From assembly GCA_040900375.1 (NCBI GenBank), contig JBBDZC010000008.1:66182-130181 (forward strand): 64,000 bases of DNA. Reading direction: 5' to 3'. Position numbers and translations under genes: made by a program. Shown one piece after another: positions 18,753-50,631 of this stretch. Numbering within the stretch: the stretch's first letter is position 1; the number at the start of each line of letters is the position of its first letter. Below the pieces are notes generated by a model, which saw only the letters and a program-made list of their open reading frames with translations, did no database searches and was not told the DNA's origin. Origin of the DNA: Candidatus Anderseniibacteriota bacterium (GTDB taxonomy: Bacteria > Patescibacteriota > Andersenbacteria > UBA10190).

Positions 18753-20432
18753 ATGCCGCGGAAAAAAGATGAGGAAAAAGAAATCAAGCAAGACATCAAA
18801 GCGCGCATGGTGGTGCTCTCGGGTGAGCAAGAAGAGCGCATCGCGCGCCGCCGGGCCGAGACTTTAAACTTGCCCTACATTAGCCTTCAAACTTTCCCAA
18901 CTGATGCAGATGTTTTGGAACTCATCCCGCGCCACTTAGCCGAACAAGCCCACGCTGTCTTATTCCACAAACAAGGGAAAGATGTCCGGGTGGGGGTAGT
19001 TAACCCCTCCCTACCAGCCTTTGCCAAATTTCGCCAGGCTGTCACCAACACGGTGGGCGTTGAACCCCAGCCCTACGTGATCTCCCATCGCAGCTTACAG
19101 GTAGCCCTCTCCCGCTACCGCCGCGAACAGCGCGTGGAGGTGACTCCCCAAGATGAAATGCGCATTACCAGCGAGAGCCTAAGCGCTTTTACCAAGACTA
19201 TCCGCGATCTCCACACTCTCGGGCAGCATATTACGACACTGCCGCCGACGGAGGTATTGGCGACGGTAGTCTCGGGAGCGGTTAAGCTCGGGGCGTCGGA
19301 TGTGCATATTGAACCAAAAGAAAAAGAAGCCCGCTTGCGCTACCGCATTGATGGGGTGTTGCAAGATATAACCGAGTTTGCATTGCCAGGTTGGCAGTTG
19401 TTGCTCTCGCGCGTCAAGGTGCTGGCGAAGCTCAAGCTCAATGTTCACGAGACGCCCCAAGACGGCAGCTTCGTGCTGCGGGTGGGTGAGGCTACGTATG
19501 ATATGCGCGTATCTATCTTGCCGGGTGACTTTGGCGAGAATATTGTCATGCGTATCTTGAACCGCGCGGCGGAAGCGGTGCGGATTACTGACCTCGGCAT
19601 GAAGGAACGTGACTACGCTGTAGTGTTGCGAGAACTGCGTCGGAGTAACGGCATGATTTTAACTACTGGCCCCACCGGCTCCGGCAAAACGACGAGCCTG
19701 GCGTCATTTTTGCGTGAGGTTAATACTCCCGAGTTGAAAATTATCACGCTGGAAGATCCCATTGAGTACCGTCTGTCTGGAGTGGAGCAGACACAGGTGG
19801 ATACCGATGCTGGCTATACTTTTGCCAAAGGGTTACGGGCGATCTTACGCCAAGACCCCGACGTTATTATGGTGGGGGAGATGCGCGATACCGAAACGGC
19901 GGAGACAGCTATGCACGCCGCGCTCACCGGCCACCTGGTCTTTTCCACGTTGCACACCAATGATGCCCCGGGCGCCATCCCGCGTCTCATTGACATGGGT
20001 ATCAAGCCCTTTATTATTGCGCCGGCCGTCAACCTGGTGATTGCGCAGCGCTTGGTACGCGTTGTCTGCAAAAAATGCGCGAAAAAGTATACGCCGGATC
20101 GCGCCATACGCGAGCAAATTGCGGCGGCGATGGAAGGTGTGCGGCGAGAGATTTTTGATCCGCAGGTGGTGCATGACCCCAAGCTTAAACTTGTGCGGGC
20201 GCAGGGCTGCGATCACTGCGCGCAAACCGGCTACAAGGGTAGGCAAGGTGTTTTTGAAATCTTCACTGTCACCGGGGCCATTGAAGAACTGGTACTTAAA
20301 GGCGCGGACAGCAACGCTATTCGAGACGCCGCGCAGAGAGCCGGCATGACGACGATTGCCCAAGACGCCTATCTGAAAGTGCTCGACGGTATAACTACCG
20401 TAGAAGAAGTAGAGCGGATTTCAGAGGAGTAA
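18753..20432 (+). CDS. pilB: Type IV pilus / type II secretion assembly ATPase (PilB/GspE family)
   Basis: The product has an N-terminal GspE_N domain and a Walker A (GPTGSGKTT). A tetracysteine motif is present (CKKCAKKY…CDHCAQTGYKGR). Confidence 0.85.
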   Translation: MPRKKDEEKEIKQDIKARMVVLSGEQEERIARRRAETLNLPYISLQTFPTDADVLELIPRHLAEQAHAVLFHKQGKDVRVGVVNPSLPAFAKFRQAVTNTVGVEPQPYVISHRSLQVALSRYRREQRVEVTPQDEMRITSESLSAFTKTIRDLHTLGQHITTLPPTEVLATVVSGAVKLGASDVHIEPKEKEARLRYRIDGVLQDITEFALPGWQLLLSRVKVLAKLKLNVHETPQDGSFVLRVGEATYDMRVSILPGDFGENIVMRILNRAAEAVRITDLGMKERDYAVVLRELRRSNGMILTTGPTGSGKTTSLASFLREVNTPELKIITLEDPIEYRLSGVEQTQVDTDAGYTFAKGLRAILRQDPDVIMVGEMRDTETAETAMHAALTGHLVFSTLHTNDAPGAIPRLIDMGIKPFIIAPAVNLVIAQRLVRVVCKKCAKKYTPDRAIREQIAAAMEGVRREIFDPQVVHDPKLKLVRAQGCDHCAQTGYKGRQGVFEIFTVTGAIEELVLKGADSNAIRDAAQRAGMTTIAQDAYLKVLDGITTVEEVERISEE

Positions 20433-26507: not shown

Positions 26508-27461
26508 TTGTTCAATTTCATGGCAAAAGATTTACGAGTAGGTATTGTTGGCTCTGGGGTGGTGGGGCAAGCGACCGGTCGAGGGTTTTTAGCGCATGGT
26601 TTTCCGGTCACGTTTATTGATACTAATCTCAACACCGTGCAGCGTTTGCGCCACGAGGGATTGAGCGCGTACACGCCGAGTGAGCGGGCGGATCAAGCAC
26701 CTGAATTTGATGTCACCATTCTCACCGTCCCGACACCCACACAGAATGGGGAAATTAATCTTCAATATCTTGAAGCGGCCGCGGTGGATCTGGGTAGACG
26801 CTTTAAGCACGCGGCTCACTACCACGTTGTTGTTGTGCGCAGTACCGTCGTGCCGGGAACTACCGAGAAGGTGGTTATTAGTACTCTTGAGCAATATTCG
26901 GGTAAGAAAGCCGGTCGTGATTTTGGCGTCTGCATGAATCCGGAATACCTGCGGGAGAAGAAATCGACCGAGGATTTTGCGCATCCGTGGATTGTGGTTA
27001 TTGGTCAGTACGACCAGCGTTCAGGCGATACCGTGGCTGCGCTCTACCGTGACTTTCAATGTCCTGTGTACCGACTGTCACTCCAGGAAGCCGAGACGCA
27101 AAAGTATGTCCACAATCTTTTTAATGCCGTGAAGATTACATTCTTTAATGAATTCCGCCAGATTTGTGAAAAAGCGCGAGTTAGTGCTGATGCGATTTTT
27201 CCACTTGTGGCTCAAAGCGCTGAAGGCATGTTTAACCCGGAGTATGGGATTAGAAACTTCGGGCCGTTTGATGGCATGTGTCTGCCGAAAGACACCCAGG
27301 CTTTTTTGTCATGGGCCCGTGCTCACGGCTGGGATATGCCGCTGTTGGCGCAGGCGATCGCGGTTAATAACGAACTCGTCGCTCGCCAATCGCGGCCCGC
27401 GCCAGCGGTTAGACAAGCAGCTCGTGACATGGTCGTGGCCCCAAGCGCCGCCGCGTTTTAA
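26508..27461 (+). CDS. UDP-glucose / GDP-mannose 6-dehydrogenase family protein (short, about 317 aa)
   Basis: The product has an N-terminal Rossmann fold (GSGVVG) and the catalytic Cys motif GMCLPKDT. It appears to lack most of the usual C-terminal nucleotide-sugar-binding domain. Confidence 0.7.
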   Translation: MFNFMAKDLRVGIVGSGVVGQATGRGFLAHGFPVTFIDTNLNTVQRLRHEGLSAYTPSERADQAPEFDVTILTVPTPTQNGEINLQYLEAAAVDLGRRFKHAAHYHVVVVRSTVVPGTTEKVVISTLEQYSGKKAGRDFGVCMNPEYLREKKSTEDFAHPWIVVIGQYDQRSGDTVAALYRDFQCPVYRLSLQEAETQKYVHNLFNAVKITFFNEFRQICEKARVSADAIFPLVAQSAEGMFNPEYGIRNFGPFDGMCLPKDTQAFLSWARAHGWDMPLLAQAIAVNNELVARQSRPAPAVRQAARDMVVAPSAAAF

Positions 27462-27476
27462 CCAAGACAGAATGGA

Positions 27477-30269
27477 GTGGTTGATTATCTCGAACAAGCG
27501 ATCGCACAGTCCTGGCTCTTTATTGTTGCCTATTCTCCCCTCGGCATAATTGGGTTGTGGCGCTGGAGTGTCTGGTTGATTAAGAAAGGTTACGCTCGCC
27601 AGTATCAACCAGCTACGGGAGAATTTACGACCTCGGTTGCTGTCATTACTCCCGTTTACAACGAAAATCCCCAGCTCTTTCGTCGAGCGCTCGACTCGTG
27701 GCGCGCTAACAAGGTTAGTGAAATTATTGCGGTGATTGATTATACTGACACCGCCTGCATTGCGATATTTAAAGAATTTGCGCGCCGCTCCCCTGGGGCG
27801 CGCTTAGTGGTTACGGAAAAGCCAGGGAAACGGCCAGCGCTAGTGGAGGGAATGCAGATGGCACGCAGCGAAATTGTGGCCCTGGTTGATAGTGATACGG
27901 TATGGGATAGGGCGACAAAGCGGCAGGCACTGATTCCTTTCCGCGATCCTAAGATTGGCGGGGTCGCCACGCGGCAGAACGTGCTTAAGCCTAAAACTTT
28001 AGCGCAGCAGATCTTTAACGCTCAATTAAATCTTCGCTACCTGGAGGAGATGCCGTTTATGACGGCGCGCGGGGGGAGTGTCGTTACTTGTCTGTCGGGA
28101 CGCACCGCATTTTATCGCCGGGCGGCGGTCATACCCGTGCTTGATAACTTGCTCCACGAAACTTTTTGGGGTCAACCAGTGATTAGTGGTGATGATAAGT
28201 GCTTAACATACTTAGTCGAAGCCCAGGGGTGGAAAGTTGCTTTTCAACAAACGGCCCGTGTGTTTACCCCCGGCACGCCGACGGTGCGTAATTTTTTACG
28301 ACAGCGGTTGCGCTGGACCCGCAATAGTTGGCGGGCAGATTTACGCACGCTAACCCAAGCGTGGGTGTGGCGCCATCCTCGTTTTGCTTGGTACTTGCTT
28401 GATCGCGTCATCCAACCATTTGCCCAACTACTCTCACCACTCTTCTTTATTGTATCCATCCTGCTCGGGTTGGGGGTGCCCGCGGTGATTTTAGCTGGGT
28501 GGTGGCATGTGGGGCGGTTTTTACGGATGTATCCTCACTTGCGCCGACATCCCCGCGATATCGAATTGATCCCGCTGTACATTGTTCTTAATTTCTACTT
28601 GGCCTTGGTTAAAATTTACGCTCTCCTGACTTTGAATCGCCAGGGGTGGATTACGCGGTGGCACCACAGCCGCTTACCCCACGCGCCGCGGGCGCTGCAG
28701 CAGGTGGCAGCTTATGGACTGACAATGAGTATTGTCGGGACGCTGGGCTTAGGTGTTGGTCTCCACGAGCGCATGGTGTTGCAGGCTGCCCAGCACGATA
28801 CCTTGCAGCAAAGTTTGCGACCGCTGTCAGTGACTCCCGTATCGGCGCACGTGGTGGGGGGACTGTCCACCGGCGCGGCCAGCGGGGCAGTAATTGGGCG
28901 TCACGAAGTCCAGGCCGGGGACACGCTTAGTCGCCTAGCCCTGCACTATGGTCTTGAGCCCGAGGTCTTAGTGGCTCATAATGCCGTGCTCTTACCGAGC
29001 CGCAACTATATCGAACCTGGCTTGGTGATTAGTGTCCCCCCGGTCAATGCGCAGCCATCAGCTCCGGTGCGGTACACCACAACGTACCAAGATCAGGGAC
29101 CGCTACGCATCACGTATAATGCCGGTACTCACACCATTGAGGTGCGGGGCCGGGGTCGTCAGATAACATTAGAGGATATTCGCCAGGCCGTGGGTGAGCG
29201 TTACCTGCGTGAAGTCTCACCCCAGCAGTGGTACTTGACGGCCAATCTTACCTTGAAAGCGGGCGTGAGTTTACGACTTGAGCAACAGGAAGTAGCGTGG
29301 CTTAAACTTAAGAGTGAGCCGCATGATTTTGTGGTTATTACAGCCGAGAGCGGCCACATGTTGATCACCGGTACGAAACTTACTTCCTGGGACGAGACGC
29401 GCCAGAATGTGGACGAGACGCTAGCCGATGGCCGCAGCTATATCGTGGCGCGGGGGCACGCGCGGTTTGATATTTTTTCAGCGGAGCTAGCGTACTTAGG
29501 CTATCCGCCAGAGCCGCAGGGACCGGCGGGGACCACAGGGGTAACATGGAGACTCACCGACCAAGAAGAAGCTTTACTGACTGGGGAAGTACGTAATAGC
29601 CGCTTTCACCATAACTACCACGGGGCGCACATCGCGGGCGGGACGGGTATGGGCTGGTACGATAACCAATTTTATGACAACACCCAAGCCGGTTTAGCTC
29701 TCGATCTTGGCACGAGTCATGCTGTGATTGAGCGCAATACTCTGTCGCGTAATGGGGAACAGGGCATCCTTCTCCGGGCCCAGTCTCGCTATAACCAGAT
29801 CGTGAATAATGAAGTGGCGTACCACCGCGACGGCATTGCGGTGAATGCTGCAGTTGATAACATAATTTCCGGCAATCATCTGCGTGCTAATCAGCGCGGA
29901 TTACATATCGGCCAGCGTGTCCAGCGAACGCTTGTTACTAGTAATCACTTTCACAGTAATGAACACTCGGGGATCTCGGCAGCGGCGACCGCCGGGCATA
30001 ATCGCATTCAGGACAACCTTTTCGAGAAGAACCGTCTCGCCTTGTACTTGGCGGCTTCGAATAATGAGATTAGTGGCAATACCGTGCACGCCAACCAGAT
30101 TGGGATGTACTTACAGTCGCCGGCGAGTAATAATCGCTTATATCAAAACAAAATTGCCGGTAACGAAAGTTACGGGCTTTACATTAAAGCCTTAGCGCAC
30201 GAGATCAATTATGCAGGAAACAATGCCATCAAGGGTAATCGCATCAATGCGGTGGCCGCGGTTCTTTGA
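27477..30269 (+). CDS. Processive GT2 polysaccharide synthase fused to a LysM domain and a C-terminal right-handed beta-helix (C5-epimerase/lyase-like) domain
   Basis: The GT2 part has DSDTVWD and QRLRW (Q-x-x-R-W), with TM helices on either side. A LysM segment follows (VQAGDTLSRLALHYGLEPEVLVAHN). The C-terminus carries repeated NxxxN/G beta-helix units (RFHHNYHGAHIAGG…). Confidence 0.8.
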   Translation: MVDYLEQAIAQSWLFIVAYSPLGIIGLWRWSVWLIKKGYARQYQPATGEFTTSVAVITPVYNENPQLFRRALDSWRANKVSEIIAVIDYTDTACIAIFKEFARRSPGARLVVTEKPGKRPALVEGMQMARSEIVALVDSDTVWDRATKRQALIPFRDPKIGGVATRQNVLKPKTLAQQIFNAQLNLRYLEEMPFMTARGGSVVTCLSGRTAFYRRAAVIPVLDNLLHETFWGQPVISGDDKCLTYLVEAQGWKVAFQQTARVFTPGTPTVRNFLRQRLRWTRNSWRADLRTLTQAWVWRHPRFAWYLLDRVIQPFAQLLSPLFFIVSILLGLGVPAVILAGWWHVGRFLRMYPHLRRHPRDIELIPLYIVLNFYLALVKIYALLTLNRQGWITRWHHSRLPHAPRALQQVAAYGLTMSIVGTLGLGVGLHERMVLQAAQHDTLQQSLRPLSVTPVSAHVVGGLSTGAASGAVIGRHEVQAGDTLSRLALHYGLEPEVLVAHNAVLLPSRNYIEPGLVISVPPVNAQPSAPVRYTTTYQDQGPLRITYNAGTHTIEVRGRGRQITLEDIRQAVGERYLREVSPQQWYLTANLTLKAGVSLRLEQQEVAWLKLKSEPHDFVVITAESGHMLITGTKLTSWDETRQNVDETLADGRSYIVARGHARFDIFSAELAYLGYPPEPQGPAGTTGVTWRLTDQEEALLTGEVRNSRFHHNYHGAHIAGGTGMGWYDNQFYDNTQAGLALDLGTSHAVIERNTLSRNGEQGILLRAQSRYNQIVNNEVAYHRDGIAVNAAVDNIISGNHLRANQRGLHIGQRVQRTLVTSNHFHSNEHSGISAAATAGHNRIQDNLFEKNRLALYLAASNNEISGNTVHANQIGMYLQSPASNNRLYQNKIAGNESYGLYIKALAHEINYAGNNAIKGNRINAVAAVL

Positions 30270-30336
30270 AGAGATTATGACAAATATAGTATTGCCTTTA
30301 TGGTACCGCTACGGTTTACTAAAAAGTAGACAACGT

Positions 30337-31941
30337 ATGCGATCAACTATTTTCCTCGCCAAGGCTCGTGGGGGATTGATGTCTCGGTTAGGGCTTGTAG
30401 CCCTGGTCTTGTTCGTCATCGGGGGATTGGGGGTATTTTCTGCCTCGGCTGCCGCCACGCCTTGTACGAGCACTGATATTCGTTGGGCGAGTTCATCCAA
30501 TACCATCTACATTTTTGGGGAAAACGTTGTGTGTACCCTAATGGACATTGACCAACTGGTACCCAAGGCGAATCTCGCCCTAGTTAATCCGACCGAGCAT
30601 ATCTGGTTTCTGGGTACTAACTTAGTGGTGCAACAAGGGGCCACGTTGCAACTCCATGGCACCAGCATTGGTGGCGATGTGGACTATTTGCGACTCAAGA
30701 GTAACAACACCTCTACTACCCATAGCATTGTCTGGATCCGGGCTGATTGGGGAATAATTGATATCGACACGACCAAAATTACTTCTTGGGATGAGGCCAC
30801 GGGCGAAACCGATAAAGAATATGAACAATATCGGCGATCATTTATCCAAGCCCGGTCACGGTTGGCGCTCGATGGTGTGACCCCTAATGAATCGCACATG
30901 AATATTAAGAATAGTGAAATTGGGTACTTGGGCTACGCGGGGGCGGAAGCTTACGGCCTATCATGGAAGGTCAATGGGAAAGAAGAAAATCTGTTTGATT
31001 TGGTCAATATCTATGGCGAGGTGATTAATAATCGCATTCACCACAACTATTTTGGCGCTTACACCTACGGCGCCGAGGGCATGCACTGGCAAGGCAATGA
31101 ACTTGATAATAACGTGGTCTATGGTCTCGACCCCCACGACAACTCCGATAACTTAGTGATTGAAGATAACGACGCTCACCACAATGGTTCGCACGGTATT
31201 ATCTGCTCGCGTTTCTGTGACCACTTAATCATTCGCAATAACGTGGCGCGGGATAACGGCGGCAACGGCATCATGCTGCATCGGCTCACCGACTTTTCTT
31301 TAATAGAAGGGAATGAAACCTTTAACAACAGTGATTCGGGCATCGCCGTTTTTGACAGCCACCACAACACGATTCGCGGCAATAGAAGCTATGGCAATGC
31401 CAAGGGCATACGCTTCAGCGTGGGCAGTTCGCATAACCTAGTAACCGAAAACCAGATTCACGATAACGATTCTTATGGCCTTTACTTCTATCAGGGCAGT
31501 GACGCCCCCACGAATTCAGGCGACAGCGGGCGGCCCCACGATAATCAGTTCATTAATAATGAAGTCTCGGGCAGCGGCATCTATGGTCTTAAAATGAAGG
31601 AGACTGACGATAACCTCTTTCAAGATAATCACTTTACGGATAACGGCCGATCTCTCTTAATTGAGTTGAGTAGCCACAATCGTTTCGAGAACAATACGAT
31701 TGAAGACAACAGCGAAACGGGGATCGTCTTAAGCGGGGCTTCCGACCACGAACTTGTTGGCAACCTCATTGAACACAACGGTGACGTGGGTATCTATCTG
31801 AAGAAGGAAAGTGACAATGCCGTCATTACCAATAATACTATCCGCCAACACAATAAGTACGGGATTCGGGTAGTGGATAGCGAGGGGGTGACAATCGAGG
31901 ACAACATCTTTGAAGATAATGGTCAGGATATCAGTTCGTAG
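30337..31941 (+). CDS. Secreted right-handed parallel beta-helix protein (AlgG/NosD-like)
   Basis: The product has a signal peptide or TM segment and many beta-helix repeats (…HHNYFGAYTYGAEGMHWQGNELDNNVVYGLDPHDNSDNLVIEDNDAHHNGSHGI…). I chose the start at Met 30337 because the ORF track start at 30211 overlaps the upstream gene. Confidence 0.65.
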   Translation: MRSTIFLAKARGGLMSRLGLVALVLFVIGGLGVFSASAAATPCTSTDIRWASSSNTIYIFGENVVCTLMDIDQLVPKANLALVNPTEHIWFLGTNLVVQQGATLQLHGTSIGGDVDYLRLKSNNTSTTHSIVWIRADWGIIDIDTTKITSWDEATGETDKEYEQYRRSFIQARSRLALDGVTPNESHMNIKNSEIGYLGYAGAEAYGLSWKVNGKEENLFDLVNIYGEVINNRIHHNYFGAYTYGAEGMHWQGNELDNNVVYGLDPHDNSDNLVIEDNDAHHNGSHGIICSRFCDHLIIRNNVARDNGGNGIMLHRLTDFSLIEGNETFNNSDSGIAVFDSHHNTIRGNRSYGNAKGIRFSVGSSHNLVTENQIHDNDSYGLYFYQGSDAPTNSGDSGRPHDNQFINNEVSGSGIYGLKMKETDDNLFQDNHFTDNGRSLLIELSSHNRFENNTIEDNSETGIVLSGASDHELVGNLIEHNGDVGIYLKKESDNAVITNNTIRQHNKYGIRVVDSEGVTIEDNIFEDNGQDISS

Positions 31942-32011
31942 ACTCGGCGCACGACTGCAGACATTTAGCACTCGCCGTATCTCTCCCCCGCTCGCGTGGG
32001 GAGTAATTTTA

Positions 32012-33202
32012 ATGAGCAGCGTGGGGCTGGGTTTCCTGGCTTATAGCGCCGGGCTTTTTCTGGCGTCGCCACTTTTGCTCTCGCTCGCGCACTCGCGCAC
32101 ACTGGAGTCTCTGCCGGCGAGTGTCATACTCTCCACAGAAATAGTAGGGGAAGTACTCCTTGAAGGATCACCGCCCGTGGCGGATATCCAGACGCCCGCT
32201 TTGTTGCCGCCCAGTCTATTGCCAAGTCCGGTGCTTGCCGCCACTATCTTGGTGAGTCCCACTGGTGTGGATGCGCCTGACCGGGGGATAGGTGGTCGTC
32301 CGTTGCGGACTGTATCGCAGGCTCTACAGCGCGCCCGGCCAGGAGATGTGATCGAGGTGCAAGCGGGCGAGTACCAGGAACACATAGTGACCACGACTGC
32401 GGGGCAAGCGCAGCAGCCAATTACGCTCCGGGCGCAGGGTCGCGTGGTTTTCAAGGGTGATCAAAAGCACGGGCGGCTGATGGAGGTACGGCACGACTAT
32501 TACGATATTTCGGGCTTTGAATTTACGAACGCCGATATTCTCCTGTGGCTTGAGGGTGCCAGGTACGCCAAGATTACCAATAACTATTTTCATGAAGCCC
32601 AGGGTGAATGTGTGCGCTTCAAATATCACTCGACGCATAATCTCTTTGCGCATAACCGCGTAGAATTTTGCGGGCGAGAGGATTTTGGCGGCGGCGGTGA
32701 TGGTAAAAATGGCGAGGGCCTCTACCTCGGTACTGCTCCCGAGCAGCTTGATCGCAACCCAACGCCCGAGACTGACCAGACCAACGCGAACACTATTCGC
32801 GCTAATACGTTTAATACCCGGGGGAACGAGTGTGTTGATATTAAAGAAGGAGCGAGCGAGAATGTTGTGGAGTTTAATGACTGTACGGGCCAACGCGATT
32901 CCGAGAGCGGCGGGTTCGACGCCCGCGGCAGCGGTAATATTTTTCGCTACAACACCAGCTACGGTAACCTCGGGGCCGGGATCCGGTTCGGCGGCGATGA
33001 GGAAAGTGATGGTATTAACAACCAGGCCTACGGCAACGAGCTCTACCAGAATGAAAATGTGGCCATAAAAGTAATGCGCTTACCCCAGGGGCTTATTTGT
33101 GGTAACAAAGTTTCTGCAAATGAGAGCGGGTTTTCTAATAACAAGAGTATCCAGAATCCAGCTTGTCCTTTTCCGCTCTCGCCACCAGGCCGGCCTTCTT
33201 AA
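32012..33202 (+). CDS. Secreted pectin-lyase-fold (DUF1565-like) beta-helix protein
   Basis: A signal peptide is followed by RTVSQALQRARPGDVIEVQAGEY, a typical N-terminus for lyase or hydrolase beta-helices. More beta-helix repeats follow. I chose the start at 32012. Confidence 0.6.
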   Translation: MSSVGLGFLAYSAGLFLASPLLLSLAHSRTLESLPASVILSTEIVGEVLLEGSPPVADIQTPALLPPSLLPSPVLAATILVSPTGVDAPDRGIGGRPLRTVSQALQRARPGDVIEVQAGEYQEHIVTTTAGQAQQPITLRAQGRVVFKGDQKHGRLMEVRHDYYDISGFEFTNADILLWLEGARYAKITNNYFHEAQGECVRFKYHSTHNLFAHNRVEFCGREDFGGGGDGKNGEGLYLGTAPEQLDRNPTPETDQTNANTIRANTFNTRGNECVDIKEGASENVVEFNDCTGQRDSESGGFDARGSGNIFRYNTSYGNLGAGIRFGGDEESDGINNQAYGNELYQNENVAIKVMRLPQGLICGNKVSANESGFSNNKSIQNPACPFPLSPPGRPS

Positions 33203-33670
33203 AAAACAATCGTCTTTTTGGTTGACGAATTGCGGGTCGTGGCTCTACAGTGAACTTTGAGTAGAAGAATTGTTGTTCATTTTACGCACCCTATTTACAC
33301 GGGCAAAAAAGTGCCAAGGAGACACGGATGGGAGTCGGCATTGCTATGTCTCGGATCTGCTGTTTTCAGTGCGGCGACTTGCTCTACGCAAGTGCGCAAG
33401 GACACTGGCCACCCGATGGTGATATTCCGCTGATTGGACAGCGGCTCATTTTTTGCTGTTCCTGTTGCACGAAGGAGTCTACGGATGAAGCGACCCAAGA
33501 GGGAACGGTGCCAAGTGCGGTACTTGCCACTAGTAGTACGCCATCGTGTTCTCTACCACTTGTTGGTAGTGCACCGCATGCGGCGCATCCCTCGCTGCTA
33601 ACATTGCAGCAGGCTCGGTACTTTTGGTTGCGGCCGCCTTTAGACAAGTAGACGTCAGAGGCGGTTTCAT

Positions 33671-33713
33671 AGCAGGAAGTTTCTTTTCCAGCAAGGAACT
33701 TCCTGCTTTTTCT
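33671..33713 (+). terminator. Rho-independent terminator candidate (bidirectional hairpin)
   Basis: A perfect 11-bp stem (AGCAGGAAGTT / AACTTCCTGCT) is followed by TTTTT on the plus strand. It lies between convergent genes. Confidence 0.5.
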
Positions 33714-35005: not shown

Positions 35006-36088
35006 TCAGGGTGCGGTGTTGTGGAGATCAACTGAAATATTGATATCTCCAGAAGTTACCGTGCCGCCGGTGGTGTTGTCTTCCGCCGTGTTGCCACCAG
35101 TGGTGGCGTCAACAGTAATAGTGTTGCTGATTTGTGTCTCTGTCGTGCTGGTTATATCGCACTCACTGCTAACTTCGGTATTGTTTTCATTCGTCGAGCC
35201 AGGGCCGGTATTTTCATTGCGCTGCTCAATATTTACATCGAGATCACAGTTTGCAGCGGGTAAGGGAGAAGGTGAAGGACTGACGCTGGGCTCTGGAGAG
35301 GGACTGGGAGAAACTGAAGGCGATGGCTCGGTTGAAGGCGTAGGTGAGGGAGAGGGGAAAATAGCGGACGTGGAAAATTGACTGTTAGTTATAGCTGCGG
35401 AGTCTGAAAAAACTGCTAACGTGGCAGGGACAGTCACCAAAAGAACGGCAAAGGCTGTCGCTCCTTTAAGTAATAAGCGCGGTTGGCGCAGCTGTCGCCA
35501 AGCCTGCTTCATAGCGGCGAGTTCTTGCAGGATAACTAGCGTTGCCGGCAGCAGAATGGCAAGCGTAAAACCGGTTTTAGTGTGGAGCCAGCGCAGTAAG
35601 TATCCTAGATACGGAATAGACATATCGGCTGCGCCGATCACGAAGCCGTGCGGCACTAGTTTAGAATCAGCAACATTATTAGCGTCACCTTGAGTGCGAT
35701 AAGCTAGGCCTTGCTTCGTGGTGACATTCTCAATAATGCGGTGCGTGGTAGTGCCTTTGGCCGAACGAAATGTAATGATGTCGCCGGGGGCATAGGCCAG
35801 CTGCTCTTTCACGGTAATGACGGCACCGGTGGCGATGACGGGCTCCATGCTGCCAGAGCGCACGACGAAGAGTTCGGTAGTACGAACGGTATGCCATATC
35901 CCGGCGCTGGCGGTAATTACTGCTACGAATAGGAAAAATGTTACTACTTGCCTGACGCGGGATTGAGAGGTAGTAGGCAAGCGAATTTGGCTGTGATGTT
36001 GCTGCAACGGGCGAAACTCTGCGTAAGTAATCACGCGTTCGGAAGTTGGCCGTATTTGTGGTGGTTGAATGCTATCCATGAGGGACAA
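35006..36088 (-). CDS. SipW/Sec11-type (archaeal-type) signal peptidase I with a C-terminal substrate-like extension
   Basis: The N-terminus has a TM segment and the SGSMEP catalytic motif, then a second TM. A signal-peptide-like segment follows (MKQAWRQLRQPRLLLKGATAFAVLLVTVPATLAVFSDSAAITNSQFST), then a Pro/Ser linker and one copy of the TGGN…NTTGG…SGD repeat. Confidence 0.75.
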   Translation of the reverse strand: MSLMDSIQPPQIRPTSERVITYAEFRPLQQHHSQIRLPTTSQSRVRQVVTFFLFVAVITASAGIWHTVRTTELFVVRSGSMEPVIATGAVITVKEQLAYAPGDIITFRSAKGTTTHRIIENVTTKQGLAYRTQGDANNVADSKLVPHGFVIGAADMSIPYLGYLLRWLHTKTGFTLAILLPATLVILQELAAMKQAWRQLRQPRLLLKGATAFAVLLVTVPATLAVFSDSAAITNSQFSTSAIFPSPSPTPSTEPSPSVSPSPSPEPSVSPSPSPLPAANCDLDVNIEQRNENTGPGSTNENNTEVSSECDITSTTETQISNTITVDATTGGNTAEDNTTGGTVTSGDINISVDLHNTAP

Positions 36089-36156
36089 GGGCGATTGTTT
36101 TAATCACCCTTGCTGCCTCACCGATTAACCTTTTAGTTAGCAATTATTCGGCTTAT

Positions 36157-36825
36157 TCAAGGGAGGGGTGTTGGTTCGGGTGTTGCTTCAGGTGTGCTCT
36201 GTGTGCCAGTAAACTCGGCATCGAAGTTGACACTTTTATTAGTAGCTTCGCTATTAATATCTAGGGTAGCTGTCATGGTACATCTGGCTTCATCGGAGCC
36301 TTCTCCATCAACTGTGCCGTCGTTCGGCCCAAGTGTGCCAAGGCCACCAGTTGGAATACCGCCATCATTTTCCCAGTCAGACAATGGCTTGGCGTCAACT
36401 GATCCATCTCCCAGAGTCTCACCATCATCACCGACATCGCATGAGAATCCAACGGAAAGATCTTCTTTGATGTCAGTGGAGTTGGCAGGAAGTGTCTGGA
36501 TGTTCTCAATAAGAACGCTAAGATCAAGGCTGACCTCACTTTCAGCGCTGCTATTATTTTTTAGCCAGAATTCAAATTCTGAAGTTTGACCCGGCAGCAT
36601 GTTTTCAACTACAGGACCCTGAATACTATTAAGGTATGCTACAGGGCTATTGCCTTCCTGTGCAATCAGAAGATCTACGTTACCGGTGGCAAATGTGCTG
36701 TTTTCAAGCGTGGCAGTGTCAGAGAAGAGTGCACTTGAGACACCGGCAACTGCTGCAAGTACCGCAAGGATAACAGCGCCGCTTACAAGCAAGCGCATAG
36801 TAGGATGAATATTTGTTAAGGTCAT
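36157..36825 (-). CDS. TasA/camelysin-family (peptidase M73-like) secreted protein with a SipW-cognate signal peptide
   Basis: After the N-terminal hydrophobic region comes …SSALFSDTATLENSTFATGNVDL…, the motif characteristic of SipW substrates. A GGAGGTG ribosome-binding site lies 8 nt upstream. Confidence 0.7.
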   Translation of the reverse strand: MTLTNIHPTMRLLVSGAVILAVLAAVAGVSSALFSDTATLENSTFATGNVDLLIAQEGNSPVAYLNSIQGPVVENMLPGQTSEFEFWLKNNSSAESEVSLDLSVLIENIQTLPANSTDIKEDLSVGFSCDVGDDGETLGDGSVDAKPLSDWENDGGIPTGGLGTLGPNDGTVDGEGSDEARCTMTATLDINSEATNKSVNFDAEFTGTQSTPEATPEPTPLP

Positions 36826-37183
36826 ATCATGTCACCTCCTCTCAAGAAAGTTCTCAAGATCGAGGGTGGCGCACAGGGTGGCAATGGAAAGTGGTGAAAG
36901 AGTTCGGCAGTGTGTTTCACAAAAATAAAAGAAGGATCAGTCACGAGATCCCCCTCATGCCCTCCTGCACTTCTAGTTACTTATTGACTAGCGTATCGCA
37001 TTGCCACAAAAGCACAATGTTTTTGCGTGATGTTGGAGCCTGGCGGAGGGAAGATTCTTTCACTGTTTACGGGGAGAAATTGGTTGTCAGTTCTGGAAAA
37101 GCGGTGTTACACTGATACCACGGGGGCGAACAGGGTGTAATTTAACAAAAGTCGACGTTCATCTGGTAATTGACTGCGAGGAG

Positions 37184-37597
37184 GTGAGTGTAATGCTACA
37201 AAAATTAGCAATGATTCTTGGGGTAGTGCTCCTGGCTCTTGGTATCCTGGGGTATGTGCCCGGAATCACCACTGATGGCATGCTCTTAGGTATCTTTGCC
37301 GTTAACGGACCGCTTAACGTGATTTACTTGATCACTGGTGCCGCTGCCCTCTGGGGGAGCCGATCCAACCTCAAGAATGCGAAGATGTCTCTCCAGGTCT
37401 TGGGCGTAGTCTATGCACTGTTGGCAGTGCTGGGCATCTTCAACATTGAAGGACCGCTCTTAGGGATGCTGGCCCACAACATGGCAGACTTAGTACTCCA
37501 CGTGGTGCTGGCGGCGGTGGCCTTATATGCCGGCTTTGGCATGAAGGCAGCAATGTCGCCCGGGATGAGTTCGAGTCAGACGCCACCCATGGCATAA
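37184..37597 (+). CDS. DUF4383-family small membrane protein
   Basis: The 137 aa product has four TM segments and a DUF4383-like pattern (…LLGIFAVNGPLN…). It has a strong ribosome-binding site (GAGGAGGTG). Confidence 0.65.
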   Translation: MSVMLQKLAMILGVVLLALGILGYVPGITTDGMLLGIFAVNGPLNVIYLITGAAALWGSRSNLKNAKMSLQVLGVVYALLAVLGIFNIEGPLLGMLAHNMADLVLHVVLAAVALYAGFGMKAAMSPGMSSSQTPPMA

Positions 37598-37623
37598 ATT
37601 TCCGGAAATTGATGATGGATATA

Positions 37624-37653
37624 AGAGAGCCTCATGAAGTCATGAGGCTCTCT
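37624..37653 (+). terminator. Strong hairpin (14-bp perfect stem) downstream of the DUF4383 gene; no U-tract
   Basis: The stem is AGAGAGCCTCATGA..TCATGAGGCTCTCT. Confidence 0.3.
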
Positions 37654-37735
37654 GCAGTGGTGGTGCGGATAACTCCCTTGCGTCGGTGAAGTACTCCTGT
37701 ACAGTAAACAATATGTTGAAAGGGGGTGACGACGC

Positions 37736-38362
37736 ATGTCGTTCAAGAATGTAGTGCAATTGTTGTTGCTCGGAACTGTGACGCTTAGCCTGGTTGCAGT
37801 TATCACCCCGAGCGCGGCGGCTTCGCATATTGATTGGGAACAACGTCGCGCACAGCGGGAAGCGGAGCGGGAGGCGCGGCGCCTGGCGCGCGAGAACCCG
37901 AGCCCGACGTGCCGGTGTTCAGCCAGCTTGGGCTTGGCGCGGCCGAGTCTGCAGTTTACTAGTGGCGGGGGCTTAACTTTGACGCCCCGGGTTGATGTCA
38001 GTATTCGCACACGCGGTGATCACGAGGCGCCACCGTGGGTGGCCGAGTTGGCATATAGCGGCACGACCGAGTATGAGTCGGATGATGTGAGTGTGCCGGC
38101 GGGAGTGGCATTTAGCGGGACACAGCAGGTAGCGGCCGGATCATGCGGTGATACGTATACTTTCCGCGGACTGGCGTTACCAGATGTCAGCCTCACTGGC
38201 TTGATCCGCTCCCTGGTGGGTGTAGATCAAGAACTTGAAGGAACGGTGCGGCTGCACGCGACGCTCAATAGCTGCGAGCTGGATGAGGAGCAGCGTCAGT
38301 TTAGCTTCCGGGTACAGGAGTTTGGGAATCTGAAGATAGGCGGGTGGCGGTCGGCGCGGTAA
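37736..38362 (+). CDS. Hypothetical secreted protein
   Basis: The product has a signal peptide (…LVAVITPSAAAS). I recognise no domain. I chose it over the overlapping minus-strand ORF. Confidence 0.45.
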   Translation: MSFKNVVQLLLLGTVTLSLVAVITPSAAASHIDWEQRRAQREAEREARRLARENPSPTCRCSASLGLARPSLQFTSGGGLTLTPRVDVSIRTRGDHEAPPWVAELAYSGTTEYESDDVSVPAGVAFSGTQQVAAGSCGDTYTFRGLALPDVSLTGLIRSLVGVDQELEGTVRLHATLNSCELDEEQRQFSFRVQEFGNLKIGGWRSAR

Positions 38363-38389
38363 CGTCGCACCAGCAGCAAACAAGGGAAG

Positions 38390-38413
38390 TTATCCACAGA
38401 AATCTGTGGATAA
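38390..38413. promoter_or_regulatory. Inverted pair of perfect DnaA-box 9-mers (TTATCCACA gaaatc TGTGGATAA)
   Basis: Both 9-mers match the consensus exactly and are separated by 6 nt. They lie about 220 nt upstream of the repeat-protein gene. Confidence 0.45.
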
Positions 38414-38632
38414 CCATCCTTGCAGGGGGAAGAAGTTGTGGTACGAAGGATACAGGTCGAAAACGTGTTGATTTAGGGGGAGCCAACCTAAGAGGACACG
38501 ATTTCTAAGGAGGGGGACCATTTGATCTTATTGATTACCAAGATCGGTGGAAGAGAATCGTGTTTTTTGTTTATCCGCTTTCACACACAAAACTCGCATG
38601 CACCATGAAGCTATGAGAGGAGGTGAGTACAG

Positions 38633-39748
38633 ATGAAGAATACATTTCGCGCACTCTTTGGCGTATCTGCACTCGCACTCTTACTAGTTGCCGCTCCTGT
38701 GTTGGCAGCAGAAGTAGATGTGACTGCCGAGAACGTCATGACGGGAGCTGATTCTGACAACAACAACGACACTGATGTTGACAACGACTTAGATGTTAAT
38801 GTTGACAACGTTGGCAATGTGAGCAACTCTGCCAGCGCGGCCGTAACCACGGGCAACAATGAGCAGAACGAAAACACCGAAGGCGGTGACGTGGACTCTG
38901 GCGCGGTTGATGCCTCCACTGACTGGGAGAGCATCGTCAATGCCGGGGCGGCTTTGTTGGACAATGGGGATGGCCTAGAAGTGTCTGCTGATTTCAGCAA
39001 CGACACAACGGGCGCTGATTCCGACAACGATAATGATCTCGATGTAGATCATGATGTTGATCTGGACTTACGCAACATCGCTAATATTCTGAACTACTTA
39101 GCATTGTCTGCCAACACTGGCGACAACGAGCAGAACAAGAATACAATGGGCGGCGAGCTCACGACGGGTGATGTAACTGTTGATTCAATGATTGCCAATT
39201 TGGCAAACAATGGCGCCGGTTACGCTAGCCTTGGCACCACCCAGGTGGATGTCAGCGGCAGCAATCACCTCACGGGAGCTGATTCTAACAACAACAACGA
39301 TGTTGATGTTGACAACGACTATGATCTTGATGTTGACAATACTGCCAACCTCACGACAAGCGTTGTGATTAATGCCCATACGGGCGGCAACGAGCAGAAT
39401 CGCAACACTCAGGGCGGCTCTATGACTACGGGCAATGTGGAAGTTTCAACGAAAGTTGAAAACTCTGCTAACAACAATTCCAGCATTGGGATTGGTGGCT
39501 CAAGTCTCGCCGTCACGGTAGAGGCTTCCAATGACACAACCGGTGCTGATTCCGACAATGATAATGATGTAGACGTTGATAACAACGTTGACATCGATGT
39601 CGACAATACCGCTAATGTCTCGAATAATCTGACCGTAAGCGCCAACACTGGCGACAACGAGCAGAACAAGAACACCCAAGGCGGTGGTGTTGAGACTGGT
39701 TCAGTCTCCATCAACTTTGAGGCGTTCAACGAAGTCAACAGCAATTAA
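38633..39748 (+). CDS. Secreted Asp/Asn-rich protein made of four tandem repeats of about 90 aa (unclassified repeat family)
   Basis: The product has a signal peptide (…APVLA|AE). Each repeat reads TGADSDN(D/N)ND-(D/V)x-acidic DxDxD run …NTG(D/G)NEQN(K/R)NT(Q/M)GG…TG(D/N)V. It has a strong ribosome-binding site. Confidence 0.7.
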   Translation: MKNTFRALFGVSALALLLVAAPVLAAEVDVTAENVMTGADSDNNNDTDVDNDLDVNVDNVGNVSNSASAAVTTGNNEQNENTEGGDVDSGAVDASTDWESIVNAGAALLDNGDGLEVSADFSNDTTGADSDNDNDLDVDHDVDLDLRNIANILNYLALSANTGDNEQNKNTMGGELTTGDVTVDSMIANLANNGAGYASLGTTQVDVSGSNHLTGADSNNNNDVDVDNDYDLDVDNTANLTTSVVINAHTGGNEQNRNTQGGSMTTGNVEVSTKVENSANNNSSIGIGGSSLAVTVEASNDTTGADSDNDNDVDVDNNVDIDVDNTANVSNNLTVSANTGDNEQNKNTQGGGVETGSVSINFEAFNEVNSN

Positions 39749-39772
39749 TTTGTCTGTTTGATTTTTGTGCAA

Positions 39773-39796
39773 GGGGGATAAGTTTTGGCTTATCCC
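39773..39796. promoter_or_regulatory. Inverted TTATCC-type pair (GGGGGATAAG ttttgg CTTATCCC) upstream of the large repeat-protein gene
   Basis: I read this directly. It lies about 35-55 nt upstream of the 39830 start. Confidence 0.35.
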
Positions 39797-39829
39797 TCTC
39801 CATGAGCATCATTTAACGTTAGGACTTTT

Positions 39830-49587: not shown

Positions 49588-50586
49588 ATGGCAAAACATG
49601 CATTAATCACCGGCATTACCGGTCAAGATGGTTCTTATTTAGCAGAGTTCCTGCTGGAGAAAGGCTATAAGGTTTATGGCCTGGTCCAGCGCCAAGCGAC
49701 TGATCCGTTTGACAACATTCGGCATATTTTAAACGATGTTGAGATTTTTGCCGGCGACCTCGGTGATTCATCGTCGTTACTTAGAGCGGTGGACGTCTCC
49801 CGCCCTGATGAAATTTATAACTTGGCGGCGCAGTCATTTGTTAAAAGTAGCTTTGAACTGCCCGAGATGACGGGCGAGGTGACGGGCGTGGGGGTGACGC
49901 GTCTGCTGGAAGCCATGCGGACGGTGAAGCCAGATGCGCGCTTTTACCAAGCTTCTAGTTCGGAAATGTTTGGTAAGGTGCAAGAAACGCCGCAACGTGA
50001 GACCACTCCCCTATATCCGCGTAGTCCGTACGGTGTGGCGAAGGCGTATGGTCACTACATGACCATAAACTATCGCGAGAGCTACGACTTATTTACCTGT
50101 TCGGGCATTCTCTTTAATCACGAGTCGCCGCGCCGAGGCTATGAATTCGTTACCCAGAAAATTGCCAGCACGGCCGCGTATATCAAGGAGGGTTTAGTGA
50201 AGCAGTTGATCCTGGGGAATCTCGAGGCGCAGCGTGACTGGGGATTTGCTGGGGACTACGTGGAAGCGATGTGGCTTATGCTGCAGCAAGACACGGCTGA
50301 TGATTATGTGGTGGGGACGGGCGAGACGCATTCAGTCCGCGAATTTCTCGATGTTGCGTTTCAGCACCTGGATTTGGATTGGCACGATTACGTGCGCAGT
50401 GACGAGCGGTTCATGCGCCCGGCGGAAGTGGATATTTTAATCTCCGATCCCACCAAGGCGCGTCAGCAATTAGGCTGGCAAGCCAAGGTCAGGTTTCCGG
50501 AGTTAGTCAAGATAATGGTAGAAGCAGCGCGTGAACGCATCGCCCGCATTAAAGCTGGGGAAATTCCTGCCTTACCAATTGCTTAA
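49588..50586 (+). CDS. gmd: GDP-mannose 4,6-dehydratase
   Basis: The N-terminus reads [23 protein letters not shown], typical of Gmd. YxxxK is present. Confidence 0.9.
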
Positions 50587-50631
50587 GGGGCGGTGGCGCC
50601 TTGATCTTCTCCGATTGAAGACACAAAGCTC

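What the first reader, a model, noticed from the sequence alone, without database searches (positions are those of the whole stretch)
26508..33202. A compact uronic-acid exopolysaccharide locus with a synthase-LysM-beta-helix fusion (alginate- or GAG-like logic)
The gene order is nucleotide-sugar 6-dehydrogenase (makes a UDP- or GDP-uronic acid), then a processive GT2 synthase with the Q-x-x-R-W motif (HasA, Alg8 or cellulose-synthase class), then two secreted right-handed beta-helix proteins (AlgG/NosD-like and DUF1565, a pectin-lyase fold). This mirrors algD-alg8-algG-algL. Unusually, the synthase itself is fused through a LysM module to a beta-helix domain of about 350 aa. That would place polymer-level modification, either epimerisation or cleavage, and peptidoglycan anchoring on the synthase.
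Basis: partly seen in the sequence, partly recalled or inferred. Interest (0 to 1): 0.6.

Follow-up and report, generated by a model that had tools for sequence, protein, structure and literature searches.

The report
Compact polyuronate capsule locus in CPR bacterium
Four adjacent genes in a Candidatus Andersenbacteria genome look like a stripped-down, single-membrane version of the alginate pathway (sugar dehydrogenase, membrane synthase, C5-epimerase, lyase), and the core of it recurs in hundreds of related ultra-small bacteria but has not been studied, as far as I could find.

Summary
Window 26508-33202 holds four co-directional, abutting ORFs.

- **Dehydrogenase:** a nucleotide-sugar 6-dehydrogenase.
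- **Synthase fusion:** a 930-aa GT2 synthase (DxD, GDD, QRLRW, WITR) joined through a LysM domain to an AlgG-like beta-helix.
- **Epimerase:** a secreted AlgG-like beta-helix that keeps the catalytic Tyr, the DPHD motif and the Arg.
- **Lyase:** a secreted beta-helix closest to the PL31 alginate lyase PsAly, with both proposed catalytic residues invariant in its family.

1. The fusion is not a rarity. More than 700 full-length homologues occur, and every one that carries a source name comes from Patescibacteria.
2. In this genome the fused beta-helix has lost all the catalytic residues. Across related loci, all 8 fusions without DPHD have a standalone DPHD epimerase nearby, against 3 of 74 that keep it. 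The activity is therefore supplied either on the synthase or separately.
3. The dehydrogenase is a conserved about 305-aa form that lacks the whole nucleotide-binding C-terminal domain but keeps the catalytic residues. It sits next to the fusion in 67 of 71 cases.

The polymer sugar is unresolved (mannuronan-like or glucuronate-based). I rate this a new variant of a known kind. I found no literature on it.

The parts
26508..27461 (+). Two-domain ('short') nucleotide-sugar 6-dehydrogenase, probable start ATG 26520. It has the NAD-binding and central (dimerisation/catalytic) domains only, with no C-terminal nucleotide-binding domain. Motifs: GSGVVG aa 15-20, NPEYLRE aa 144-150, QKYVHN aa 198-203, and GMCLPKD with the catalytic Cys at aa 256-262.
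27477..30269 (+). 930-aa fusion protein: N-terminal TM helix, cytoplasmic GT2 domain, TM/interface helices, LysM domain and AlgG-like beta-helix.
27636..28346 (+). GT2 catalytic domain (aa 54-290) with LVDSDT (aa 136-141), SGDDK (aa 237-241) and QRLRW (aa 276-280). All three motifs are invariant or nearly so in the family.
28359..28811 (+). Membrane region (aa 295-445). It contains helices 301-329, 333-357, 359-384 and 405-445, plus the GWITRW loop (aa 390-395), which aligns with the WGTR motif of hyaluronan synthase.
28896..29039 (+). LysM domain (aa 474-521), preceded by a disordered linker (aa 446-472).
29106..30266 (+). AlgG-like right-handed beta-helix (aa 544-930). It is catalytically degenerate here: AGLALDLG (aa 738-745, nt 29688-29711) replaces the family consensus YGLDPHDD, and the next coil (HGIIxSK/R) is deleted.
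30211..31941 (+). Secreted standalone AlgG-type beta-helix (C5-epimerase or lyase chemistry). It has a signal/anchor helix at aa 57-80, YGLDPHD at aa 304-310 (nt 31120-31140) and HGIICSR at aa 328-334.
31910..33202 (+). Secreted PL31/PL9-like beta-helix, a putative polyuronate lyase (database start 32012). The counterparts of PsAly Tyr184 (in GEGLYLGT, aa 268-275) and Lys221 (in DIKEG, aa 310-314) are present and invariant in the family.
33671..33707 (+). Strong terminator-like hairpin (15-bp stem followed by a T run), the likely 3' end of the transcription unit.
49588..50586 (+). Context, not part of the locus: a GDP-mannose 4,6-dehydratase (Gmd). It shows that this genome uses GDP-mannose.
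   Evidence: TIGR01472, 431.5 bits against a 415-bit cut-off

Best explanation
This is a synthase-dependent pathway for a secreted uronic-acid polysaccharide, adapted to a bacterium with one membrane and a peptidoglycan wall.

**Proposed steps**
1. *Dehydrogenase (inferred).* The short enzyme oxidises C6 of the sugar precursor to the uronic acid. It keeps the Cys, Lys, Asn and Asp catalytic set. Because it lacks its own nucleotide-binding domain and is almost always encoded next to the synthase, it probably works in association with the synthase.
2. *Synthase (fold and motifs shown, activity inferred).* The membrane GT2 polymerises the chain and threads it through its own transmembrane channel.
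3. *Topology (inferred).* The last TM helix places the LysM domain and the beta-helix outside the cell. LysM would hold the module at the wall.
4. *Fused beta-helix.* In most family members it is an active AlgG-type module acting on the emerging chain. In this genome it has lost every catalytic residue and probably serves only to bind or guide the chain. Catalytically dead AlgG keeps such a protective role in Pseudomonas.
5. *ORF3.* It supplies the DPHD chemistry as a separate protein: abstraction of the C5 proton, giving epimerisation and possibly cleavage.
6. *ORF4.* This PL31-like lyase trims or releases the polymer by beta-elimination.

**Sugar.** It is most likely mannuronate, which would make the polymer alginate-like. 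A glucuronate-containing chain is not excluded.
For: **Domain and motif content**
- Domain content and motifs.
- GT2: by sequence it is closest to Chlorella-virus and Xenopus hyaluronan synthases, with GDD, QxxRW and W-x-TR aligned. By fold, E is 1e-16 and TM 0.66 (on an AF2 model with pLDDT 86.8).
- Beta-helices: the family profile scores 160 bits against AlgG. ORF3 keeps Tyr314, DPHD and Arg345 equivalents; the roles of these residues are taken from PMC4444821 and PMC4436075.
- ORF4: closest to PL31 PsAly (E 3.5e-10, E 2e-14, TM 0.77). Tyr184 and Lys221 equivalents are invariant in 40 homologues.

**Genomic linkage**
- The short dehydrogenase is adjacent to the fusion in 67 of 71 cases.
- An ORF4-like gene is present in 37 of 48 loci with at least 2.5 kb of flank on both sides.
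- One protein, P0023, carries the ORF4-like domain fused to the C-terminus of the synthase-epimerase.
- All 8 fusions without DPHD have a standalone DPHD protein nearby, against 3 of 74 that keep the motif. After dereplication, Fisher p is 1e-7 to 9e-5.

**Dehydrogenase**
- Catalytic motifs are invariant in 27 to 63 members.
- The closest solved relative is AlgD at 216 bits, against 190 bits for an archaeal UDP-glucose dehydrogenase.
- A Gmd gene in the same window shows that GDP-mannose is made.
Against: - There are no experimental data for any member.
- The dehydrogenase lacks the domain that binds the nucleotide in all characterised relatives, so its substrate is uncertain.
- Its grouping with the AlgD-like clade has only 56 of 100 bootstrap support.
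- The synthase resembles hyaluronan synthase and NodC rather than anything I could show to be Alg8-like. No Alg8 sequence or structure was available for comparison.
- ORF3 scores 119 bits against a 700-bit AlgG equivalog cut-off, so it is a distant relative.
- All characterised DPHD beta-helices act on mannuronan, so that pointer to the sugar is biased by what has been studied.
- From my own memory, PL31 also contains glucuronan lyases.
- The outside location of the LysM and beta-helix domains rests on a predicted model and charge distribution, not on a topology predictor or experiment.
Confidence: 0.6

Rival explanations
1. The architecture is the same, but the polymer is built from UDP-glucuronic acid. 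It would be hyaluronan-like (GlcA-GlcNAc), cellubiuronic-acid-like (GlcA-Glc, as in pneumococcal type 3 capsule) or beta-1,4-glucuronan. The DPHD beta-helix would then convert GlcA to L-iduronate or act as a lyase.
For: - The synthase's best sequence and fold matches are hyaluronan synthases, and its best NCBIfam hit is NodC.
- The dehydrogenase is about equally identical (32%) to AlgD and to an archaeal UDP-glucose dehydrogenase.
- The AglM UDP-glucose dehydrogenase model is its best NCBIfam equivalog hit.
- The gene order dehydrogenase then synthase matches cps3D-cps3S (own knowledge).
- LysM binds GlcNAc-containing glycans (own knowledge).
Against: - The family profile favours AlgD by 26 bits, and the NJ tree puts the short dehydrogenases next to the AlgD-like clade, though weakly.
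- No AlgG-fold enzyme is known to act on glucuronate (own knowledge).
- The nearest solved lyase, PsAly, is listed as M-specific, EC 4.2.2.3.
Confidence: 0.3
2. The synthase makes a neutral GlcNAc or glucose polymer (chitin-like, or poly-N-acetylglucosamine). The beta-helices are glycosidases or carbohydrate-binding scaffolds, and the truncated dehydrogenase has a different, non-sugar-nucleotide role.
For: - NodC and PgaC are the top NCBIfam GT2 hits.
- LysM would bind a GlcNAc polymer.
- The dehydrogenase lacks the nucleotide-binding domain.
- Beta-helix folds also occur in glycoside hydrolases (one search lists GH136 and GH87).
Against: - The DPHD, Tyr and Arg set (ORF3) and the Tyr/Lys set (ORF4) are chemistries that need a C5 proton next to a carboxylate.
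- The dehydrogenase keeps the Cys needed for four-electron oxidation to an acid, invariantly.
- It is genetically tied to the synthase.
- All top fold hits of ORF4 are uronate lyases.
Confidence: 0.07
3. The short dehydrogenase is a decaying remnant, and the locus works with uronic-acid precursors made elsewhere.
For: A whole domain and an N-domain loop of about 20 aa are missing.
Against: - The short form is monophyletic in 99 of 100 bootstrap replicates.
- About 100 of the 150 best 50%-identity cluster representatives are short.
- Catalytic and NAD motifs are invariant.
- All 63 non-identical copies end at the same place.
- Adjacency to the synthase is kept even where the gene order is inverted.
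Confidence: 0.03

Closest known systems
[quoted passage not shown]
   Same: It has the same four functions in the same logical order: a C6 dehydrogenase (AlgD is the closest solved relative), a membrane GT2 synthase, a beta-helix C5-epimerase with Tyr, DPHD and Arg, and a polyuronate lyase. As here, catalytically dead AlgG keeps a structural role (PMC4436075).
   Different: - There is no Alg44/PilZ c-di-GMP co-polymerase, no AlgK/AlgE outer-membrane export and no acetylation genes.
- The lyase has a beta-helix fold (PL31-like), not that of AlgL, a PL5 lyase with an alpha/alpha barrel (own knowledge).
- The epimerase module is usually fused to the synthase through a LysM domain.
- The dehydrogenase lacks its nucleotide-binding domain.
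- The synthase could not be shown to be Alg8-like.
Class I hyaluronan synthases (Chlorella virus HAS, vertebrate HAS1; has operon hasA-hasB)
   Same: These are the best sequence and fold matches of the GT2 and membrane part. The GDD, QxxRW and W-x-TR motifs align. In both systems a single polypeptide polymerises and translocates the chain, and a sugar 6-dehydrogenase gene lies beside the synthase.
   Different: - Identity is only about 18-20%.
- There appears to be one TM helix after the W-x-TR loop, giving an extracellular C-terminus with LysM and a beta-helix.
- No hyaluronan synthase has a fused modifying domain.
- Dual UDP-GlcNAc/UDP-GlcA specificity is untested here.
Streptococcus pneumoniae type 3 capsule (cps3D-cps3S)
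   Same: It is a minimal synthase-dependent polyuronate system in a bacterium with a single membrane, with the dehydrogenase gene directly upstream of a processive GT2 synthase (own knowledge).
   Different: It has no polymer-level epimerase or lyase and no LysM. Cps3D is a full-length UDP-glucose dehydrogenase.
PL31 alginate lyase PsAly (PDB 6KFN), also PL9 Pel9A and the PL6 lyases
   Same: [quoted passage not shown]
   Different: Identity is about 20%. CAZy family assignment could not be run. ORF4 sits in a biosynthetic locus, not a catabolic one.

Membership tests
Processive membrane-embedded GT2 synthases (HAS / cellulose synthase / chitin synthase / NodC class) | GT-A domain with DxD, (G/E)DD and QxxRW motifs | tested here: met
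   LVDSDT, SGDDK and QRLRW are present. D138, D140, G238, D240, Q276, R279 and W280 are invariant in 32 homologues.
Processive membrane-embedded GT2 synthases (HAS / cellulose synthase / chitin synthase / NodC class) | Transmembrane helices after the GT domain that form the translocation channel, with a fold match to solved synthases | tested here: met
   The AF2 model has helices 301-445. Foldseek gives Cv-HAS at E 1e-16 and TM 0.66, BcsA at 1e-11 and Chs1 at 5e-9.
Class I hyaluronan synthase | W-G-T-R/S gating-loop motif | tested here: met
   GWITRW aligns to WGTRG of Cv-HAS. W391, T393 and R394 are invariant. Gly is replaced by Ile, Met or Leu.
Class I hyaluronan synthase | Alternating use of UDP-GlcNAc and UDP-GlcA | not testable with these tools
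   This needs enzymology. Identity of about 18-20% is too low to infer specificity.
Alg8 alginate polymerase | Sequence or profile membership in the Alg8 family, and dependence on Alg44 | not tested
   No Alg8 sequence, model or structure was reachable. No NCBIfam Alg8 hit appeared at E<=0.01. No PilZ/Alg44-like gene was found in 85 loci.
AlgG / AlgE mannuronan C5-epimerases | Right-handed beta-helix with the DPHD motif, the preceding Tyr, and Arg on the next coil | tested here: met
   For ORF3: YGLDPHD and HGIICSR align to AlgG Y314, D317-D320 and R345. Residue roles are from PMC4444821.
AlgG / AlgE mannuronan C5-epimerases | The same catalytic set in the beta-helix fused to the synthase | tested here: not met
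   The window protein reads AGLALDLG and lacks the next coil. The set is present in 96 of 119 other family members.
AlgG / AlgE mannuronan C5-epimerases | NCBIfam equivalog score for AlgG (cut-off 700 bits) | tested here: not met
   ORF3 scores 119 bits and the fusion 48 bits. They are distant relatives, not orthologues.
AlgG / AlgE mannuronan C5-epimerases | Epimerisation of polymannuronate | not testable with these tools
   This needs an enzyme assay.
UDP-glucose / GDP-mannose 6-dehydrogenase family | NAD-binding domain, central domain with catalytic Cys, and Lys/Asn/Asp | tested here: met
   PF03721 and PF00984 hit. TIGR03026 scores 199.8 bits against a 189.8-bit cut-off. G15, G17, G20, K199, N203, C258, K261 and D262 are invariant.
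UDP-glucose / GDP-mannose 6-dehydrogenase family | C-terminal nucleotide-binding domain (PF03720) | tested here: not met
   It is absent from the window protein and from all 63 non-identical neighbours of fusions. The model does detect the domain in the nearest full-length relatives.
GDP-mannose 6-dehydrogenase (AlgD type) | Phylogenetic placement within the AlgD clade | tested here: inconclusive
   AlgD is the best solved relative (216.6 against 190.2 bits). Grouping of the short clade with the AlgD-like clade has 56 of 100 NJ bootstrap support. Identity is about 32% to both AlgD and the archaeal enzyme.
PL31 polysaccharide lyases | Beta-helix fold and the proposed catalytic Tyr184 and Lys221 of PsAly | tested here: met
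   6KFN is the top hit by sequence (E 3.5e-10) and by fold (TM 0.77). Y and K are 37 residues apart in PsAly, and their counterparts are invariant in alignment A2.
PL31 polysaccharide lyases | CAZy/dbCAN family HMM assignment | not testable with these tools
   dbCAN is not available. Pfam gives DUF1565, Pel9A-like and Chondroitinase_B_N hits.

The most novel reading that the evidence does not exclude
The two-domain dehydrogenase is not a free-standing nucleotide-sugar dehydrogenase. It would be a subunit that docks on the synthase's cytoplasmic domain. There it would either use the nucleotide sugar held by the synthase or oxidise C6 at or after transfer. That would be a previously unseen way of making a polyuronate. 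The product would be an alginate-like or iduronate-containing surface polymer that is a lineage-wide feature of Patescibacteria and serves in attachment to host cells.
Probability: 0.15. Interest if true: 0.85.

Novelty: new variant of a known kind. Interest (0 to 1): 0.66.

Why it matters
- **Alginate distribution.** From my own knowledge, alginate-type chemistry is known only from brown algae and from Pseudomonas and Azotobacter. A conserved, minimal equivalent spread through Patescibacteria would change where such polymers are expected, for example in groundwater, where many of the related contigs come from.
- **CPR biology.** These bacteria have very small genomes and are thought to live attached to hosts (own knowledge). 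Keeping a dedicated surface-polymer module suggests it is important for that lifestyle.
- **Enzyme mechanism.** The covalent synthase-LysM-epimerase fusion is a natural test of the idea that polymerisation and modification are physically coupled. The pattern of fused versus separate catalytic modules gives ready-made controls.
- **The dehydrogenase puzzle.** A catalytically intact dehydrogenase without a nucleotide-binding domain is a clear biochemical question with a simple assay.

Tried and rejected
- **RNA families.** An Rfam scan of the window found nothing.
- **Genome-contig scan.** The metagenome scan with an alignment gave 79 loci.
- **Substrate of the dehydrogenase.** NCBIfam has no AlgD equivalog model, and none of the nearest full-length relatives passes any equivalog cut-off. 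Pairwise identities are equal. The NJ tree is weakly resolved.
- **A separately encoded C-terminal dehydrogenase domain.** I clustered all ORFs of at least 70 aa in the 85 loci and found none. The recurrent small clusters are antisense shadows of the conserved genes.
- **Dehydrogenase fusions.** The 942-aa hit P0316 is a tandem pair of full-length dehydrogenases, not a synthase fusion. The 427-aa dehydrogenase near L076 is a distant paralogue.
- **AlphaFold database fold search.** It would have allowed an Alg8 comparison, but the library was not available.
- **Literature.** Searches combining CPR or Patescibacteria with hyaluronan synthase, C5-epimerase, alginate or LysM found nothing relevant.
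- **Mobile-element or defence-island reading.** I rejected this because the flanks are housekeeping genes and GC content is even.
Full report
**Observation**

They are separated by 15 nt or overlap. A 138-nt AT-rich spacer follows polA upstream, and a strong hairpin terminator lies at 33671-33707 downstream. This looks like one transcription unit set among housekeeping genes: RuvB, PilB, BacA, TsaE and PolA upstream, and a CAP-domain protein, a possible signal peptidase (judged from a weak match of its L001 homologue and from its sequence, not from a domain hit) and a camelysin-like protein downstream. GC content is even. The 930-aa protein is identical to an NCBI entry called 'MAG: glycosyltransferase [Candidatus Andersenbacteria bacterium]', so the window comes from a Patescibacteria (CPR) genome.

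**The synthase fusion**

Pfam and NCBIfam find GT2 models at aa 54-343, a LysM domain at 476-521 and NosD/beta-helix repeats to the C-terminus. NodC is the best-scoring curated GT2 family.

Against solved structures, the GT2 and membrane part is closest to Chlorella-virus and Xenopus hyaluronan synthases. GDDK aligns to GDDR, QRLRW to QQTRW, and GWITR to WGTR (family profile 80 bits).

An AlphaFold model built on 32 homologues has mean pLDDT 86.8. Its layout is:
- one N-terminal TM helix;
- the GT-A domain;
- helices at 270-384;
- the W-I-T-R loop;
- one long helix at 405-445;
- a disordered linker;
- the LysM domain;
- a 385-residue beta-helix.

Foldseek ranks hyaluronan synthases first (E 1e-16, TM 0.66) and AlgG next (1e-15). 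Cellulose synthase (1e-11) and chitin synthases (5e-9) follow. The GT2 therefore belongs with processive, channel-forming synthases.

The charge distribution, and the single helix after the cytosolic W-x-TR loop, put the LysM and beta-helix domains outside the cell. This is an inference.

**The beta-helices**

The family profile of the fused domain matches AlgG at 160 bits over 300 residues, including the N-terminal cap.

ORF3 matches AlgG at E 3e-20 and keeps VYGLDPHD and HGIICSR. By residue counting in that alignment these correspond to AlgG Tyr314, Asp317-Asp320 and Arg345. The review PMC4444821 assigns proton abstraction to the His of DPHD, coordination of a water molecule that may act as the proton donor to Tyr314, and charge neutralisation to an arginine.

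The window's own fused domain reads AGLALDLG at that site and lacks the following coil. It cannot carry out this chemistry.

In the wider family, 96 of 119 full-length homologues keep DPHD. The window protein's nearest clade (P0001-P0021, bar three members) and a few others have lost it.

**Fused or separate catalytic module**

I collected 85 related loci and re-annotated them with phmmer.
- All 8 complete fusions without DPHD, the window's among them, have a standalone DPHD-bearing beta-helix gene within the flanks.
- Only 3 of 74 fusions that keep DPHD have one.
- After clustering the fusions at 90, 70 or 60% identity, the association remains: 7/7 against 3/60, 6/6 against 2/36, and 5/5 against 1/21. 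Fisher p runs from 1e-7 to 9e-5.
- The losses fall in about five groups that are at most 46% identical to one another.
- The standalone proteins form their own family, 47-56% identical to ORF3. They are only 35-39% identical to DPHD-keeping fused domains, so they are an old paralogue rather than a recent split.

This pattern is the strongest evidence that the DPHD activity is required by the system and can be supplied either on the synthase or as a separate protein. It also fits the finding that Pseudomonas AlgG with a mutated DPHD still protects the nascent chain (PMC4436075). That is a plausible role for the dead fused domain here.

**ORF4**

Its family carries DUF1565 and Pel9A-like Pfam domains and also occurs outside CPR.

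The best solved relative is the PL31 alginate lyase PsAly, 6KFN, at E 3.5e-10 by sequence. A model with pLDDT 87.7 matches it at E 2e-14 and TM 0.77. PL9 Pel9A, PL6 alginate lyases, chondroitinase B and RbmB follow.

PsAly's proposed catalytic residues are Tyr184 and Lys221 (PMC11890756). In the alignment, the Tyr of GEGIYVGS and the Lys of DIKEG are 37 residues apart, which matches those two. Their counterparts are invariant in 40 homologues.

ORF4-like genes occur in 37 of 48 loci with at least 2.5 kb of flank on both sides, mostly directly downstream. In one protein, P0023 (1308 aa), the ORF4-like domain is fused to the end of the synthase-epimerase at 42% identity.

**The dehydrogenase**

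It has the NAD-binding and central domains and passes the NDP-sugar dehydrogenase subfamily cut-off. It aligns only to positions 2-299 of 413 and has no PF03720 domain.

This is not an accident of this genome.
- A dehydrogenase of about 305 aa lies next to the fusion, upstream or downstream, in 67 of 71 cases with enough flank.
- All 63 non-identical copies end at the same point.
- The GxGxxG motif, NPEYLRE, the Lys/Asn helix and the G-x-C-L-P-K-D catalytic Cys motif are invariant.
- In a search of 1.84 billion cluster representatives, about 100 of the best 150 hits are short. Full-length relatives appear only below about 180 bits.
- Pfam detects the C-terminal domain in those full-length proteins but not in the short ones.
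- No separately encoded C-terminal domain recurs near the loci.

The closest solved relative is AlgD (GDP-mannose 6-dehydrogenase) at 216.6 bits, against 190.2 for an archaeal UDP-glucose dehydrogenase and at most 144 for the rest. The short clade is monophyletic in 99 of 100 bootstrap replicates, but its grouping with the AlgD-like clade has only 56 of 100 support.

The window also encodes a bona fide GDP-mannose 4,6-dehydratase at 49588-50586, so GDP-mannose is available.

The sugar therefore remains open, with a lean towards mannuronate. How an enzyme without its nucleotide-binding domain recognises its substrate is unexplained. The tight linkage to the synthase suggests the two work together.

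**Mechanism and comparison**

The most economical reading is a minimal, single-membrane counterpart of the alginate system, with four steps.
1. The precursor is oxidised.
2. A hyaluronan-synthase-like enzyme polymerises and exports the chain.
3. An AlgG-type module carries out C5 chemistry on the emerging chain, held at the wall by LysM.
4. A PL31-like lyase trims or releases the polymer.

The system lacks Alg44, the outer-membrane export parts and the acetylation genes.

The rivals are a glucuronate-based polymer with iduronate formation (0.3), a neutral polymer with unrelated accessory functions (0.07) and a decaying dehydrogenase (0.03).

I do not file the parts as orthologues of AlgG, AlgD, Alg8 or HasA. 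They fail or cannot be given the corresponding equivalog tests (membership table).

**Novelty**

Five literature searches that paired CPR or Patescibacteria with the relevant terms found nothing. Sources name the family only generically, or 'hyaluronan synthase' by automatic annotation.

I rate it a new variant of a known kind. The pathway logic is familiar. Three things are new:
- the synthase-LysM-epimerase fusion with its fused-or-separate variation;
- the truncated dehydrogenase;
- the occurrence across Patescibacteria.

All functional statements are computational inferences.

Noticed in passing
window 49588-51609: A GDP-mannose 4,6-dehydratase (TIGR01472, 431.5 bits against a 415-bit cut-off) is followed by an SDR epimerase/reductase. 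This is a GDP-deoxyhexose pathway and shows that the genome makes GDP-mannose.
   Followed up: partly
L013, L014, L023, L024, L039, L043 and others (34 loci), abutting the fusion gene: A protein of about 270 aa, with a signal peptide, what looks by eye like a fibronectin-III-type domain, and C-terminal TM helices, often overlaps the fusion's start or stop by 4 nt. It is a possible additional subunit and is absent from the window.
   Followed up: partly
L008, L053, L059, L063, L065, L071, L074-L077 (14 loci): A protein of about 440 aa with sequence motifs resembling BNR/sialidase repeats lies next to the dehydrogenase-fusion pair. A sortase-like protein of about 190 aa (it carries a TLVTC motif) recurs in 14 other loci.
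   Followed up: no
L023, L039, L040, L047: Two full-length fusion genes flank a single short dehydrogenase (fusion, dehydrogenase, fusion). Both copies keep DPHD.
   Followed up: no
L078, L083, L084, L085: These fusions are shortened to about 760-800 aa and are followed directly (a few kb further on in L085) by a standalone DPHD beta-helix of about 610-645 aa. This may be a split or frameshifted arrangement.
   Followed up: no
window 33328-33651: A 107-aa Cys-rich ORF (CCFQCG...FCCSCC) lies between ORF4 and the terminator hairpin. It is not conserved in the closest syntenic locus, L001, and may be spurious.
   Followed up: partly
window 35006-45980: A 360-aa membrane protein with no Pfam hit is followed by a weak camelysin (Peptidase_M73) match. 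Several large ORFs with no Pfam match come next (371, 979, 301 and 521 aa). They are possibly a surface-protein cluster.
   Followed up: no
window 15514-17550 and 18753-20432: A 678-aa protein with PKD and lamin-tail domains, and a PilB-type type IV pilus ATPase, lie upstream of the locus.
   Followed up: no
window 26508-27461 compared with AlgD: Besides the missing C-terminal domain, the short dehydrogenases lack the loop of about 20 residues in the N-domain (the 'EPGL' region). They also carry an invariant G-P-F-x-G in place of the usual G-F-G-G before the catalytic Cys.
   Followed up: partly
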